This document shows positions 3,987 through 5,969 of a stretch of 64,000 nt of DNA, in pieces. Position 1 is the first letter of the stretch, and the number at the start of each line of letters is the position of its first letter. Origin of the DNA: Escherichia phage vB_EcoM_ASO1B; sequence record MZ726792.1; one strand, given 5' to 3'. The translations under genes were made by a program, and so were the position numbers. The notes below the pieces were generated by a model. The model was not told where the DNA came from and did no database searches. It worked only from the letters and a program-made list of their open reading frames with translations.

Positions 3987-4229
3987 ATGCAAACATTAAC
4001 AGTAGTTGAACATGAAAACTGTGAGAATATTGAGTTTGTCAGGGTCATTGGTGTTGAACACCACATTTTCTTAAAAGTAGGGTACTTATGTGACCCCGCT
4101 AGAGTAGAAAGATTTATACGTGATTGTTTTGGTGGTAGACAGCTAAAGAGTGTTATTTTTGAGACAGTTTTACCAGAAGGTTTAGAAACGAATAATAACA
4201 TTTATCTCCTTACAAGGATTAGACGATGA
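3987..4229 (+). CDS. hypothetical protein (80 aa) embedded in tRNA cluster
   Basis: ORF in track; AAGGTG ribosome-binding site 5-6 nt upstream of ATG 3987. Confidence 0.5.
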   Translation: MQTLTVVEHENCENIEFVRVIGVEHHIFLKVGYLCDPARVERFIRDCFGGRQLKSVIFETVLPEGLETNNNIYLLTRIRR

Positions 4230-4783
4230 GATATTTAAAATATGCTTCATGGATTTTCCTAGCTTTGCTAGAACCATTAGCAGCAACCTTAGCAGTTATC
4301 TTAGCACCTTTCGTAGTTCCATTTTACAGTGAGAAGAAAGGCCACTTACCTTTCGGATTTAGATGGATGGAGACATATGACAACCCAATTGATGGTGACG
4401 AAGGTCATATCGAACGATGGGCTAAGATTAGAAAGATTGGTAAGCTGGGTGTCTACATGCAGAGAGTCGGATGGCTCTGGAGAAACAAAGCTTATAACTT
4501 CTCTTACCATGTATTAGGAAGAGATGTAAAAGATGTTACTAAGTGGAAAGGTAATATCAACGTAAGTTCTGACCCTGAAGATAATCAGACAGGTTATCTC
4601 CTAATGTGGAACAGTAATGCTTGGGGATTATTCGCTTTTATCCCATCAATTAAAGTCTTTGGTAAACAATTTTACTGGAGAATTTATATTGGGTGGAAGC
4701 TAAAAAGTGTTGTCCCAGAAGAAAGAGCATTCTCAAGGGAAAGAGTTATGTTGGCATTCTTTATTCATCCACTAAGAAAGTAA
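4226..4783 (+). CDS. hypothetical membrane protein (185 aa, N-terminal hydrophobic segment)
   Basis: ORF in track; start overlaps the stop of the upstream ORF (ATGA); hydrophobic N-terminus IFLALLEPLAATLAVILAPFVVPF. Confidence 0.55.
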   Translation: MRYLKYASWIFLALLEPLAATLAVILAPFVVPFYSEKKGHLPFGFRWMETYDNPIDGDEGHIERWAKIRKIGKLGVYMQRVGWLWRNKAYNFSYHVLGRDVKDVTKWKGNINVSSDPEDNQTGYLLMWNSNAWGLFAFIPSIKVFGKQFYWRIYIGWKLKSVVPEERAFSRERVMLAFFIHPLRK

Positions 4784-4791
4784 AGATTTAA

Positions 4792-4867
4792 AGGGGATTA
4801 GTTTACAAGGTTAAAACCTCGGTCTTTGAAATCGAAGAAGTTGGTTCAATTCCAACATCCCCCGCCA
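4792..4867 (+). tRNA. tRNA-Gln (anticodon TTG)
   Basis: D-stem GTTT/AAAC, anticodon loop CTTTGAA, perfect T-arm GTTGG-TTCAATT-CCAAC, CCA. Confidence 0.7.
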
Positions 4868-4869
4868 AT

Positions 4870-4948
4870 GCTCCATTACTCCAATTGGCAGAGAGGCCAG
4901 ACTTAAAATCTGTGTTATGTATCGGTTCGAATCCGATATGGAGTACCA
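4870..4948 (+). tRNA. tRNA-Leu (anticodon TAA), short variable arm
   Basis: D loop AATTGGCAGAG as in Leu-CAA, anticodon loop CTTAAAA, perfect T-arm ATCGG-TTCGAAT-CCGAT, CCA. Confidence 0.55.
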
Positions 4949-4953
4949 AATTT

Positions 4954-5029
4954 AGCGGTATAGCATAACTGGCAATGCAACAGTCTCTGAAGCTGTCCTA
5001 TTAAGGTTCAAATCCTTATGCCGCTGCCA
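4954..5029 (+). tRNA. tRNA-Gln (anticodon CTG)
   Basis: D-stem GCAT/ATGC, anticodon loop CTCTGAA, T-loop TTCAAAT, CCA. Confidence 0.7.
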
Positions 5030-5030
5030 C

Positions 5031-5060
5031 TTCTAAGGGTTCTTACGAGAGTCCTTAAAT
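5031..5060 (+). repeat. recurrent motif M, copy 2 (TTCTAAGGGTTCTTACGAGAGTCCTTAAAT)
   Basis: 14-nt exact match AGGGTTCTTACGAG with the copy at 1681-1714. Confidence 0.5.
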
Positions 5061-5136
5061 GTGGCCTTATCATAAATGGTAATGACCCATGCTGTGAACA
5101 TGGTCTATACGGGTTCAAATCCCGTAGGTCACCCCA
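5061..5136 (+). tRNA. tRNA-His (anticodon GTG)
   Basis: D-stem TCAT/ATGA, perfect anticodon stem CCATG/CATGG with loop CTGTGAA, T-loop TTCAAAT, CCA. Confidence 0.7.
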
Positions 5137-5141
5137 ATTTA

Positions 5142-5218
5142 TAGTCCAAGTAGCTTATATGGTTAAAGCGCGTGTCTGAAAAACATGAGAAGAGGGTTCA
5201 AATCCCACTGGACTACCA
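5142..5218 (+). tRNA. tRNA-Phe (anticodon GAA)
   Basis: Perfect 7-bp acceptor TAGTCCA/TGGACTA, anticodon loop CTGAAAA, T-loop TTCAAAT; 5' end and D-stem register uncertain. Confidence 0.55.
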
Positions 5219-5234
5219 ATTTCAAAGGTGCTTA

Positions 5235-5969
5235 ATGAAAGAGATGACAGAACAAGGTAAGGAGATTTTTAATCTCTTAAAAACCGGTAAAGGGTTTTCT
5301 AACCCACTTATTACTGGTGCAGCAGTTCTCGGTGGAACCGTAGCTGCCTCTACATCACTTGTAAGCTCTATTAGTTCTGTAACAGACCCTACAATGCAGG
5401 AGAAACTTGTTGCTGCTGGACTTACAACAGTCCTTCTAAACAGCTTTACAACAAGCCTTACAAGCACTACAGCAACTACTAAGACCCTGACAGACTACGG
5501 TCAAAAGTCTATTGATGAGTTTTCATCACGTATGCAGGTAGCAAAGGGATATTCCAATGTTATGAGTGCAGCAGGAGAACAAGTTGGTTGTACACCGTTC
5601 AGTGGTATTATGGGTGTTGCTACAGAATATGGTCAAAAAGCTATTGATACAATTAACAGTACACTAGAGAGTGTTAACGATGTATTAAGTGACTTACAAG
5701 ACGCTATTGATGAGGGTCTTGATACTATTTCTGATTTAGCTAATCAGGCTGTTAGTAAGATTAATGAAGGTATTTCAAAGATTACAGCTTATGCAGATGA
5801 AGTTGTGCAGATGATTGAAGAAGAAGCTGCCCTTATTGCAGAGTACCTTAAAACGAATATCAATGGGTTCTTAGCAGGTATCTTACCAGACTGGTTTGAC
5901 GATGCCTGTAAAACTGGTGTAATTGACACTATTGCAACACCAGAAATGAAGAACGCATTACAGAAATAA
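5235..5969 (+). CDS. hypothetical Ser/Thr/Ala-rich protein (245 aa)
   Basis: ORF in track; start moved to ATG 5235 (AAAGGTG ribosome-binding site) because the track start at 5172 lies inside tRNA-Phe. Confidence 0.55.
   Translation: MKEMTEQGKEIFNLLKTGKGFSNPLITGAAVLGGTVAASTSLVSSISSVTDPTMQEKLVAAGLTTVLLNSFTTSLTSTTATTKTLTDYGQKSIDEFSSRMQVAKGYSNVMSAAGEQVGCTPFSGIMGVATEYGQKAIDTINSTLESVNDVLSDLQDAIDEGLDTISDLANQAVSKINEGISKITAYADEVVQMIEEEAALIAEYLKTNINGFLAGILPDWFDDACKTGVIDTIATPEMKNALQK

What the first reader, a model, noticed from the sequence alone, without database searches (positions are those of the whole stretch)
3987..5969. Protein-coding genes embedded within the tRNA cluster
Three ORFs with ribosome-binding sites sit among the tRNA genes: an 80-aa protein, a 185-aa membrane protein with overlapping start (ATGA), and a 245-aa Ser/Thr/Ala-rich protein whose stop (5969) is 2 nt before tRNA-Ser(GCT). 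Genes nested in phage tRNA clusters are often accessory (host takeover, exclusion). The Ser/Thr-rich protein has low-complexity stretches (TTSLTSTTATTKTLT) suggestive of an extended or glycosylated surface protein.
Basis: seen in the sequence. Interest (0 to 1): 0.35.

Follow-up and report, generated by a model that had tools for sequence, protein, structure and literature searches.

The report
Three phage genes inside tRNA array
Three real, already annotated genes of unknown function sit between the tRNA genes of a Felix O1-type coliphage: two form a swappable membrane-protein cassette, and the third is a conserved helical virion protein that may be the unidentified cap seen on this phage group's tail needle.

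Summary
ORF1 (3987-4229, 80 aa), ORF2 (4226-4783, 185 aa) and ORF3 (5235-5969, 244 aa, not 245) lie among 25 tRNA genes of a Felixounavirus. They are annotated as hypothetical proteins in a record identical over 3900-6200. All three are under purifying selection (dN/dS 0.06-0.20).

They are not one functional group. ORF1 and ORF2 are a translationally coupled accessory cassette of about 815 bp between tRNA-Arg(ACG) and tRNA-Gln. The cassette is missing from Shigella phage Sf14 and Erwinia phage Roscha1, and ORF1 is missing from Felix O1. ORF2 (Pfam DUF7338) has one membrane helix and a probably periplasmic Trp-rich domain with a fold that matches no solved structure. It is shared with T4-like phages, where it also lies near tRNA genes. 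The "holin" label in some records is not supported.

ORF3 (Pfam DUF7217) is not an extended or glycosylated surface protein. Its model is a compact all-alpha bundle (pLDDT 95). It is conserved across Ounavirinae and Ackermannviridae, precedes the terminase and portal genes, and its LIMEstone1 homologue was found in virions by mass spectrometry. In two distant phages the gene follows the PAAR spike-tip gene.

Speculative lead (probability about 0.35): ORF3 is the unidentified helix-rich cap on the tail needle of Bas63 and Sf14.

The parts
2334..2362 (+). Strong sigma-70-type promoter inside the tRNA array (TTGACA-17-TATAGT, 11 of 12). It is the likely source of the transcript that carries the downstream tRNAs and ORF1-ORF3.
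   Evidence: annotated promoter. It corresponds to P45 of Felix O1 in PMC3185647. That it drives these ORFs is inferred, not shown.
3894..3969 (+). tRNA-Arg(ACG), the 5' boundary of the ORF1-ORF2 cassette.
   Evidence: In Sf14 this tRNA is followed after 9 nt by tRNA-Gln.
3987..4229 (+). ORF1: 80 aa, 9.4 kDa, no membrane segment, no family assignment beyond phrog_14202. It is patchy and fast-diverging.
   Evidence: (dN/dS 0.18-0.20).
4226..4783 (+). ORF2: 185 aa, 21.9 kDa, pI 9.8, Pfam DUF7338. One N-terminal membrane helix carrying a conserved Asp/Glu, then a Trp-rich alpha/beta domain. Predicted topology is N-in, C-out.
4792..5218 (+). Five tRNA genes (Gln-UUG, Leu-UAA, Gln-CUG, His, Phe) that separate the ORF1-ORF2 cassette from ORF3.
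5235..5969 (+). ORF3: 244 aa, 25.7 kDa, pI 4.3, Pfam DUF7217. All-alpha bundle with a near-invariant N23-P24 motif and a co-varying cysteine pair (C119, C225).
5972..6144 (+). tRNA-Ser(GCT) and tRNA-Cys, the last tRNAs of the array. tRNA-Ser starts 2 nt after the ORF3 stop.
6226..6324 (+). Promoter-like site (6226-6254) and terminator-like hairpin (6307-6324) between the tRNA array and the 66-aa ORF and terminase block.
   Evidence: These are consensus matches only.

Best explanation
The three ORFs are genuine genes, probably co-transcribed with the tRNA array and packed so tightly against tRNA ends that tRNA processing would define their mRNA ends. They belong to two unrelated units.

**Unit 1: ORF1 and ORF2.** This is a translationally coupled accessory cassette of about 815 bp, inserted between tRNA-Arg(ACG) and tRNA-Gln(UUG). 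ORF2 (DUF7338) is a single-pass inner-membrane protein. It has a short cytoplasmic N-terminus and a periplasmic, basic, Trp-rich domain of about 150 aa with a fold known only from phages. It has 17 invariant residues, mostly aromatic or polar (ETYDNPIDGD, WLWRN, GWKLK). My inference is that it binds or modifies an envelope component in the infected cell, for example for superinfection exclusion, envelope remodelling or control of lysis. It moves between Felix O1-like and T4-like phages at tRNA loci. ORF1 is a small soluble partner of unknown role.

**Unit 2: ORF3.** ORF3 (DUF7217) is the first gene of the packaging and morphogenesis block. It is a compact acidic helical bundle and a low-copy virion component associated with the tail's cell-puncturing tip. 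It is most likely the unidentified helix-rich trimeric cap seen on the spike of Bas63 and Sf14. It would be shed or rearranged when the needle meets the envelope.

**Shown:** coding status, family membership, gene distribution, predicted folds, neighbourhood conservation, and mass-spectrometry detection of a homologue.

**Inferred:** ORF2 topology, ORF2 function, ORF3 location on the spike, and mRNA processing by the tRNA-maturation enzymes.
For: **Coding status**
- Pfam and PHROG matches.
- dN/dS of 0.06-0.20.
- Felix O1 RT-PCR gave transcripts for ORF48 and ORF49, the ORF2 and ORF3 homologues.

**ORF1-ORF2 as a cassette**
- Sf14 has tRNA-Arg followed directly by tRNA-Gln, with neither ORF.
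- Roscha1 lacks both ORFs.
- Felix O1 lacks ORF1.

**ORF2**
- One membrane helix.
- The N-terminal flank is more positively charged than the C-terminal flank, +2.5 against +0.6 on average over 28 homologues.
- 17 invariant residues.
- No match in the PDB (TM-score at most 0.18). The viral structure library gave only uncharacterised phage proteins.
- Homologues 56-62% identical occur in T4-like phages, 0.25-1 kb downstream of those phages' few tRNA genes.
- An Ounavirinae-like metagenomic contig has ORF2 at 86% identity while TerL is only 69%.

**ORF3**
- AlphaFold2 model with pLDDT 95.1, all alpha.
- Same position in Felix O1, Sf14 and Roscha1, always 16-17 nt after a tRNA and upstream of the small ORF, TerL and portal.
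- Full-length homologues at 27-30% identity throughout Ackermannviridae.
- LIMEstone1 ORF129 is a mass-spectrometry-confirmed virion protein (18% coverage, 2 peptides) with a late promoter annotated upstream. EspM4VN has a late-type motif at the same place.
- In two divergent metagenomic myoviruses the gene directly follows a PAAR spike-tip gene. In one of them the order is Phage_base_V-like spike, PAAR, DUF7217. The PAAR proteins are 37% identical and the DUF7217 proteins 28% identical.
- No homologue is among solved virion chains.
- Bas63 and Sf14 both show an unidentified helix-rich C3 density, described as an apical cap, on the spike tip. Sf14 encodes gp26, 82% identical to ORF3, but has no ORF2.
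Against: **ORF3**
- No experiment places it on the spike.
- Most distant DUF7217 contexts examined show no PAAR gene.
- One context puts the gene immediately upstream of a GH19 lysin and a spanin-like gene.
- No PAAR-like ORF was found in this window, though the test was weak.
- The Felix O1 shotgun proteome did not list gp49 at 25% coverage or more. The paper's "gp49 = 51 kDa band" does not fit the predicted 25.7 kDa.
- Felix O1 RT-PCR put ORF48 and ORF49 at maximum expression 5 min after infection. That is early rather than late, although the same early list includes the major capsid gene.
- The LIMEstone1 mass-spectrometry list also contains probable contaminants such as rIIB and DNA ligase.

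**ORF2**
- The topology rests only on charge bias.
- No function has been tested.
- In Aeromonas phage Ah1 the homologue abuts lysozyme e, which keeps a lysis role open.
Confidence: 0.5

Rival explanations
1. ORF2 (DUF7338) is the phage's holin, of a class-III type like T4 gpT: one membrane helix and a large periplasmic domain. This is how it is annotated in a few records.
For: - It is labelled "holin" in Salmonella phage DR094, Citrobacter phage HP1 and Yersinia phage P8.
- Its predicted topology, one helix with N-in and C-out, is the same as that of T4 gpT (the gpT topology is from general knowledge of that family).
- In Aeromonas phage Ah1 the homologue sits directly upstream of lysozyme e and beside asiA, the position gene t occupies in T4.
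- The Felix O1 holin has never been identified.
Against: - There is no homology to the T holin (hhalign probability 0.2%) or to any Pfam holin family.
- No structural match appears among the listed Foldseek hits against the PDB, all with E of 0.24 or worse and TM-score at most 0.18.
- It coexists with a canonical T holin in Citrobacter phage Margaery, Escherichia phage AV109 and Slopekvirus phages.
- In this phage group the endolysin lies about 7.7 kb away on the other strand.
- The gene is absent from Sf14 and Roscha1, which must still lyse their hosts.
- The Felix O1 authors' holin candidates did not include gp48.
- The PHROG family is of unknown function.
Confidence: 0.12
2. ORF3 is not a virion component. 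It is a non-structural protein, such as an assembly chaperone or scaffold-like factor, or a lysis-associated or membrane-active protein. On this view the mass-spectrometry detections reflect co-purifying material.
For: - The LIMEstone1 identification rests on 2 peptides, in a list that also holds non-structural proteins.
- It is not in the Felix O1 shotgun list.
- It is not modelled in the Bas63 or Sf14 structures.
- RT-PCR put its expression maximum at 5 min in Felix O1.
- In contig L031 it directly precedes a GH19 lysin and a spanin-like protein.
- Several records call it a putative membrane protein.
Against: - A late promoter motif lies directly upstream in Ackermannviridae.
- PAAR-DUF7217 operons are conserved across deep divergence.
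- The hydrophobic stretch 25-43 is not conserved in the family: only 5 of 24 members reach a Kyte-Doolittle 19-residue mean of 1.6.
- The model is a soluble bundle.
Confidence: 0.25
3. ORF3 is a virion protein but sits elsewhere, as an internal head or tail-lumen (ejected) protein rather than the cap on the spike tip.
For: - It has virion mass-spectrometry evidence but is absent from the symmetric reconstructions.
- Its composition gives weak matches to tape-measure PHROGs, with E values of 3e-5 to 9e-3 for the five strongest and a weaker sixth at 0.068.
- The gene lies next to the packaging and head genes in Ounavirinae.
- The conserved cysteine pair would fit a protein that works in the periplasm after ejection.
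Against: - Its adjacency to PAAR and spike genes in two lineages points to the tip.
- An unassigned helix-rich density exists exactly there in two phages that carry the gene.
Confidence: 0.12
4. One reading: all three are accessory host-takeover or exclusion genes, and ORF3 is an extended, possibly glycosylated, Ser/Thr-rich surface protein.
For: - The genes lie in a tRNA array, a region that is plastic in T4-like phages.
- ORF3 is 20.5% Ser+Thr.
- ORF1 and ORF2 really are dispensable in related genera.
Against: - ORF3 is conserved across a subfamily and a second family.
- Its model is compact and fully ordered, with the Thr-rich run inside a helix.
- It has no signal peptide, and there is no evidence of glycosylation.
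Confidence: 0.05

Closest known systems
Pfam DUF7217 (PF23854) / phrog_2114, including Felix O1 ORF49, Sf14 gp26 and Dickeya phage LIMEstone1 ORF129 ("unknown structural protein")
   Same: ORF3 matches the model over its full length (E 5e-89). It is 95% identical to Felix O1 ORF49, 82% to Sf14 gp26 and 28% to LIMEstone1 ORF129. Length, the N-P motif and the cysteine pair are shared.
   Different: No member has an assigned function. Only the LIMEstone1 protein has direct proteomic evidence; a ViI counterpart is asserted by the same authors. In Ackermannviridae the gene lies near gp3 and the capsid gene rather than in a tRNA array.
Pfam DUF7338 (PF24027) / phrog_2143, found in Felixounavirus and in T4-like phages (RB43, JS10, Slopekvirus, Karamvirus and others)
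   Same: ORF2 matches over its full length (E 4e-62). All 17 invariant residues are present. Homologues in T4-like phages also lie close to tRNA genes.
   Different: The family has no characterised member. Its "holin" and "envelope protein" labels are unsupported annotations.
T4 holin gpT (Pfam Phage_holin_T, class III holin)
   Same: ORF2 has a comparable size and single-pass architecture with a large extracytoplasmic domain. In Aeromonas phage Ah1 the DUF7338 gene occupies the position beside asiA and lysozyme.
   Different: There is no sequence or profile similarity and no fold match among the listed Foldseek hits against the PDB. The two families coexist in the same genomes.
Spike-tip proteins of contractile tails: PAAR proteins (T4 gp5.4) and the unidentified apical cap on the iron-loaded needle of Bas63 and Sf14
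   Same: DUF7217 genes are coupled to PAAR and spike genes in two distant phages. The unassigned density is trimeric and helix-rich, and it occurs in phages that encode DUF7217.
   Different: ORF3 is all-alpha and bears no resemblance to the PAAR beta fold. No PAAR gene was detected in this window. The identity of the density is not established.
Protein-coding ORFs interspersed in phage tRNA arrays (T4 and JS10 trna.2-4, Felix O1 HNH endonuclease genes)
   Same: Small ORFs nested among tRNA genes on the same strand are already described for Felix O1 and seen in T4-like phages.
   Different: None of the three ORFs here is a homing endonuclease. ORF3 is a conserved gene of the morphogenesis block rather than a mobile insert.

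Membership tests
Pfam DUF7338 (ORF2) | Score above the curated gathering threshold over the whole model | tested here: met
   209.4 bits against a cut-off of 27, covering residues 1-184 of 185.
Pfam DUF7217 (ORF3) | Score above the curated gathering threshold over the whole model | tested here: met
   298.5 bits against a cut-off of 29, covering residues 8-243 of 244.
Holin (ORF2) | At least one transmembrane helix in a small protein | tested here: met
   A hydrophobic segment at residues 4-37, modelled as helix 2-33.
Holin (ORF2) | Homology to a known holin family, in particular the T4-type class III holin | tested here: not met
   hhalign probability 0.2% against T4 gpT. No holin family in Pfam. 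No match among the listed Foldseek hits against the PDB.
Holin (ORF2) | Encoded in a lysis cassette next to the endolysin, as the genome's only holin | tested here: not met
   The endolysin ASO1A_040 lies about 7.7 kb upstream on the opposite strand. The family coexists with the T holin in Margaery and AV109. It is adjacent to lysozyme only in Aeromonas phage Ah1.
Holin (ORF2) | Forms membrane lesions that release endolysin at a programmed time | not testable with these tools
   This needs expression and lysis assays.
Virion structural protein (ORF3) | Peptides detected in purified virions | tested here: inconclusive
   The homologue LIMEstone1 ORF129 was detected, with 2 peptides and 18% coverage. 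The Felix O1 "gp49" claim is internally inconsistent (51 kDa band against a predicted 25.7 kDa) and the protein is missing from the shotgun list. There are no data for this phage.
Virion structural protein (ORF3) | Late-gene expression or position in a morphogenesis module | tested here: inconclusive
   It is immediately upstream of the small ORF, TerL and portal in Ounavirinae. Late promoter motifs lie upstream in LIMEstone1 and EspM4VN. Against this, Felix O1 RT-PCR placed ORF49 in the 5-min class.
Spike-tip / PAAR-associated protein (ORF3) | Conserved gene neighbourhood with central-spike or PAAR genes | tested here: inconclusive
   Met in 2 of the 10 distant DUF7217 homologues whose contigs were examined (L019 and L023). 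Not met in the others. No PAAR gene was detected in this window.
Spike-tip / PAAR-associated protein (ORF3) | Physical location on the spike tip | not testable with these tools
   An unassigned helix-rich C3 density exists there in Bas63 and Sf14. Fitting needs the maps and a multimer model.
Tape measure protein (ORF3) | Long protein encoded between the tail chaperones and the baseplate hub, with length matched to the tail | tested here: not met
   There are only weak compositional PHROG hits (E 3e-5 and worse). ORF3 is 244 aa and lies outside the tail module. The real tape measure protein is ASO1A_065, 742 aa.
Small terminase subunit (ORF3) | The gene preceding TerL that serves as the only TerS candidate | tested here: not met
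   Ackermannviridae carry DUF7217 in addition to a separate two-subunit terminase. ORF3 has no terminase family hit. It is strongly acidic, with pI 4.3.
   No residue has pLDDT below 70, and the Thr-rich run lies in helix 65-94. No signal-peptide-like N-terminus is visible in the sequence.

The most novel reading that the evidence does not exclude
ORF3 (DUF7217; Sf14 gp26, Felix O1 ORF49) is the protein behind the unidentified, helix-rich, three-fold density that caps the iron-loaded tail needle in the published Bas63 and Sf14 cryo-EM maps. It would be a new kind of spike-tip accessory protein for contractile tails. In other myoviruses it is encoded in an operon with PAAR. It may be stabilised by a conserved cysteine pair, and it would be released or refolded on contact with the envelope.

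A second, weaker novelty concerns the mRNAs. Their ends may be set by tRNA maturation, through RNase P and RNase E cuts 2-17 nt from the coding regions. This would resemble the tRNA-punctuation model of transcript processing.
Probability: 0.35. Interest if true: 0.6.

Novelty: already known. Interest (0 to 1): 0.4.

Why it matters
The feature as reported is ordinary. These genes are already annotated as hypothetical proteins, and both larger ones belong to existing Pfam families of unknown function.

The value lies in what the follow-up suggests:

- **A named candidate for an open structural question.** Two recent cryo-EM studies of this phage group could not identify a helical cap on the tail needle. 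ORF3 is a specific candidate. It can be tested by re-searching a public proteomics dataset and by fitting a model into deposited maps.
- **Relevance to applied use.** Felix O1-like phages are used in Salmonella and E. coli typing, biocontrol and therapy. The first virion part to touch the cell envelope bears on host range and engineering.
- **Annotation hygiene.** The "holin" label spreading through DUF7338 entries has no support.
- **Genome plasticity.** The ORF1-ORF2 indel shows that tRNA arrays are sites where phages of different families exchange cargo.

Tried and rejected
**Homology and fold searches that found nothing**
- ORF2 and ORF3 against PDB sequences, as single sequences and as profiles, gave only coiled-coil or compositional hits.
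- Foldseek of both models against the PDB gave nothing significant: TM-score at most 0.33 for ORF3 and at most 0.18 for ORF2.
- Foldseek of ORF2 against viral predicted structures returned only uncharacterised relatives.
- PADLOC and NCBIfam scans gave nothing real.
- A literature search for the two DUF names returned no papers.

**Ideas tested and dropped**
- ORF2 as a T4-type holin: rejected.
- ORF3 as a tape measure protein or small terminase: rejected.
- ORF3 as a conserved membrane protein: rejected, because the hydrophobic stretch is not conserved.
- An ORF1-like partner next to DUF7338 in T4-like phages: none found.
- A Y-RNA or other known RNA in the array, prompted by the Ro60-like gene upstream: Rfam found only tRNAs and tRNA-like elements.

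**Data I could not reach**
- Bas63 knockout fitness values for these genes. The supplements are not held, and the text mentions only gp130.
- Two other phage-essentiality preprints do not cover this phage group.
- The VpaE1 and Sf14 supplements do not list the homologues among mass-spectrometry hits in the held text.
- No Felixounavirus transcriptome paper was found.

**Evidence I discounted**
- I give little weight to the Felix O1 paper's "gp49 = 51 kDa band, possibly the sheath". It looks like a numbering or mass inconsistency, since the 48.9-kDa gp63 fits that band better.

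
Full report
**1. What is there**

The window is a Felix O1-type myovirus. Positions 3900-6200 are 100% identical to Escherichia phage vB_EcoM_ASO1A (MZ726791, genus Felixounavirus). About 290 related records match this stretch. A spot check shows the window is not byte-identical to that record elsewhere, so I treat it only as the closest record.

ARAGORN finds 25 tRNA genes between 993 and 6144, all on the + strand. Rfam confirms most of them.

- ORF1, 3987-4229, 80 aa.
- ORF2, 4226-4783, 185 aa, with an ATGA start/stop overlap with ORF1.
- ORF3, 5235-5969, 244 aa.

Each has a Shine-Dalgarno-like motif. They are wedged against tRNA ends with gaps of 17, 8, 16 and 2 nt. 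The closest record annotates them as hypothetical proteins ASO1A_046, 047 and 048.

**2. They are real genes**

- ORF2 matches Pfam DUF7338 (E 4e-62). ORF3 matches DUF7217 (E 5e-89). ORF1 matches phrog_14202.
- Against other Felixounavirus genomes, dN/dS is 0.18-0.20 for ORF1, 0.06-0.10 for ORF2 and 0.07-0.14 for ORF3.
- In Felix O1 the ORF2 and ORF3 homologues are ORF48 and ORF49. RT-PCR detected transcripts of both, with a maximum at 5 min after infection. That timing table also lists the major capsid gene as early, so I give it little weight.
- A strong sigma-70 promoter inside the array (2334-2362, equivalent to Felix O1 P45) lies upstream. No convincing terminator appears before 6307. Co-transcription with the tRNAs is therefore likely but not shown.
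- RNase P and the 3'-end maturation enzymes cut at tRNA boundaries; this is established knowledge of tRNA processing. The mRNA ends would then fall 2-17 nt from the coding regions. This is an inference.

**3. ORF1 and ORF2 are an accessory cassette**

*Presence and absence*
- Shigella phage Sf14 (Mooglevirus) has tRNA-Arg(ACG) followed after 9 nt by tRNA-Gln, with neither ORF.
- Erwinia phage Roscha1 (Kolesnikvirus) lacks both.
- Felix O1 lacks ORF1.

*ORF1*
- It occurs in only 69 phage records and ranges from 40% to 100% identity. It falls into two main allelic groups.
- Where present it always sits directly upstream of ORF2.

*ORF2 sequence and model*
- It has one N-terminal membrane helix with a conserved Asp/Glu inside it.
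- Over 28 homologues the N-terminal flank is more positively charged than the C-terminal flank (+2.5 against +0.6). This favours an N-in, C-out topology with a periplasmic domain.
- The AlphaFold2 model is confident (pLDDT 93.2, pTM 0.84). It shows short helices followed by a five-stranded sheet.
- The model resembles nothing in the PDB (TM-score at most 0.18). In the viral structure library it matches only uncharacterised phage proteins.
- Seventeen residues are invariant, mostly aromatic or polar: T50, D52, W83, W85, R86, N87, Y90, R152, W157, K158 and others. This pattern points to a specific ligand or catalytic site.

*ORF2 distribution*
- Homologues 56-62% identical occur in T4-like phages (RB43, JS10, Slopekvirus, a Yersinia phage). 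There they lie 0.25-1 kb downstream of those genomes' one to three tRNA genes.
- In an Ounavirinae-like metagenomic contig, ORF2 is 86% identical while TerL is only 69%. It is again flanked by tRNAs, with the same 8-nt gap to the next tRNA.
- This pattern fits lateral exchange at tRNA loci.

**4. The "holin" label on ORF2 is not supported**

- There is no similarity to T4 gpT (hhalign probability 0.2%) or to any holin family.
- DUF7338 coexists with a canonical T holin in Margaery, AV109 and Slopekvirus phages.
- The endolysin of this phage group is about 7.7 kb away on the other strand.
- Sf14 and Roscha1 do without the gene.
- The one observation in favour comes from Aeromonas phage Ah1. There the homologue abuts lysozyme e, beside asiA, at the position gene t holds in T4.
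- I therefore keep a lysis-related role as a minority rival. My preferred reading is an envelope-directed accessory function, and I mark it as inference.

**5. ORF3 is a different kind of gene**

*Conservation and position*
- It is conserved at the same place in Felix O1, Sf14 (gp26, 82% identity) and Roscha1 (45% identity). It is always 16-17 nt after a tRNA, with a similar leader (AUU..AAAGGUG). It always lies upstream of a small ORF, TerL and portal.
- In Roscha1 it sits at the 3' edge of the tRNA array. Its "embedded" position in Felixounavirus arises only because tRNA-Ser and tRNA-Cys lie downstream.
- Full-length homologues at 27-30% identity occur throughout Ackermannviridae.

*Virion and expression evidence*
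- LIMEstone1 ORF129 (28% identity, E 3e-30) was identified in virions by ESI-MS/MS, with 18% coverage and 2 peptides. The authors state that all their unknown structural proteins have structural counterparts in ViI.
- A late promoter is annotated just upstream in LIMEstone1. A late-type motif lies at the same place in EspM4VN.

*Structure and sequence*
- The AlphaFold2 model is a compact all-alpha bundle with pLDDT 95.1, pTM 0.85 and no residue below 70. The TTSLTSTTATTKTLT run lies inside helix 65-94. The "extended or glycosylated" reading is therefore not supported.
- The moderately hydrophobic stretch 25-43 is not conserved in the family, which argues against a membrane protein.
- Near-invariant positions include N23-P24 and two cysteines, C119 and C225. 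Both cysteines are lost together in the two family members that lack them. This suggests a disulfide or a shared ligand.
- No solved structure is homologous.

**6. Where in the virion?**

*Gene neighbourhoods of distant DUF7217 members*
- In contig L023 the gene order is a baseplate Gp53-like protein, then, after several intervening genes, a weak Phage_base_V-like spike, then PAAR (E 7.5e-13), then DUF7217. The DUF7217 start overlaps the PAAR stop.
- In contig L019 a PAAR gene (35 bits, above the threshold) precedes DUF7217 by 3 nt.
- Between these two contigs the PAAR proteins are 37% identical and the DUF7217 proteins 28% identical. The neighbourhood has therefore survived deep divergence.
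- In contig L031 the gene ends a baseplate and fibre block and precedes a GH19 lysin and a spanin-like gene.
- The other contexts are uninformative.

*Published cryo-EM*
[quoted passage not shown] The density is helix-rich, with two helices per 120 degrees. The authors could not resolve it and note the same feature in Sf14.
- The Sf14 paper describes an unexplained "knob" or "apical cap" on the needle.

*How ORF3 fits*
- Sf14 encodes DUF7217, and the family is present in the Felixounavirus records searched; I did not check the Bas63 record itself. Sf14 lacks ORF2.
- ORF3 is all-alpha. A homologue has virion mass-spectrometry support. It is not among the modelled chains. It lies outside the region those authors treated as the structural module.

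I therefore propose ORF3 as the candidate for that cap, at a probability of about 0.35.

*Weaknesses of the proposal*
- There is no direct localisation.
- No PAAR gene was detected in this window.
- Only 2 of the 10 distant homologues whose contigs I examined show the PAAR link.
- The protein is absent from the Felix O1 shotgun list. The Felix O1 "gp49 = 51 kDa" statement is also inconsistent with the predicted 25.7 kDa.

**7. An oddity in ORF3's divergence**

In the Ounavirinae-like contig L027, DUF7217 is only 21-23% identical to ORF3 and lacks both cysteines. Its neighbours are 40-70% identical. In Roscha1, by contrast, its divergence (45%) is in line with other structural genes. This points to a local replacement or to accelerated evolution. 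Either would be consistent with a part that contacts the host, but neither proves it.

**8. Verdict**

As a feature it is already known: the genes are annotated hypothetical proteins, both larger ones belong to Pfam families, and ORFs inside the Felix O1 tRNA array are described in the literature.

The useful output is a specific, cheaply testable candidate for an unidentified tail-tip density. A second output is a correction of the spreading "holin" annotation.

Noticed in passing
window 144-827 (the gene continues upstream of the window): The gene just upstream of the tRNA array is the Ro60/TROVE-vWA-like protein. It is annotated as "RNA-binding protein" in Felix O1 RefSeq and carries DUF2828 in Sf14. 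Its Bas63 homologue gp130 is reported to counter the Ppl defence system, and those authors speculate that some of the "tRNAs" are Y-RNA-like partners (PMC11482910).
   Followed up: partly
window 2567-2645 (+); weaker at 2794-2868 and 1826-1876: An extra tRNA-like element scores 31.7 bits, above Rfam's tRNA gathering score of 29, but ARAGORN does not call it. Two weaker tRNA-like matches lie in other gaps of the array. In Felix O1 these gaps hold HNH endonuclease genes that are absent here.
   Followed up: no
window 3926-4201 (-): A 91-aa minus-strand ORF overlaps tRNA-Arg and ORF1. It corresponds to gene 52 as annotated in phage wV8. The substitution pattern supports the plus-strand ORF1 instead, so the wV8 annotation is probably spurious.
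   Followed up: partly
window 6367-6567 (+): A 66-aa ORF between the tRNA array and TerL keeps its position in Felix O1, Sf14, Roscha1 and the metagenomic contig L027, where it is 33% identical. No small terminase subunit is annotated in these phages. Its role is unknown.
   Followed up: no
L027 / L028 (metagenomic contigs of about 44 kb): An undescribed Ounavirinae-like phage has TerL and portal about 69-70% identical to the window. It shows a shuffled 11-tRNA array, ORF2 at 86% identity and a DUF7217 at only 21-23% identity that lacks both cysteines.
   Followed up: partly
L009 12886-12960 (-), L018 1441-1491, L006 5941-5991: In Ackermannviridae the DUF7217 gene is preceded by a late-promoter-like CTAAATAcCcc motif. 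This is followed at once by a G+C-rich hairpin and a T-run that ends at the ATG, with no obvious separate Shine-Dalgarno sequence. In LIMEstone1 the hairpin is annotated as a terminator.
   Followed up: no
Literature: PMC3185647 (Felix O1 genome paper): The paper assigns the 51-kDa major virion band to "gp49" and suggests it is the sheath. ORF49 in the RefSeq numbering is the 25.7-kDa DUF7217 protein inside the tRNA array. The 48.9-kDa gp63 fits the band better. This is probably a numbering slip that has entered later lists of "structural proteins".
   Followed up: partly
L012 3929-5398 (Aeromonas phage Ah1): In this T4-like phage a DUF7338 gene, lysozyme e and a 147-aa ORF lie between a tail-fibre gene and asiA, which is the position of holin gene t in T4. 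I did not check whether Ah1 also has a T-type holin elsewhere in its genome.
   Followed up: partly
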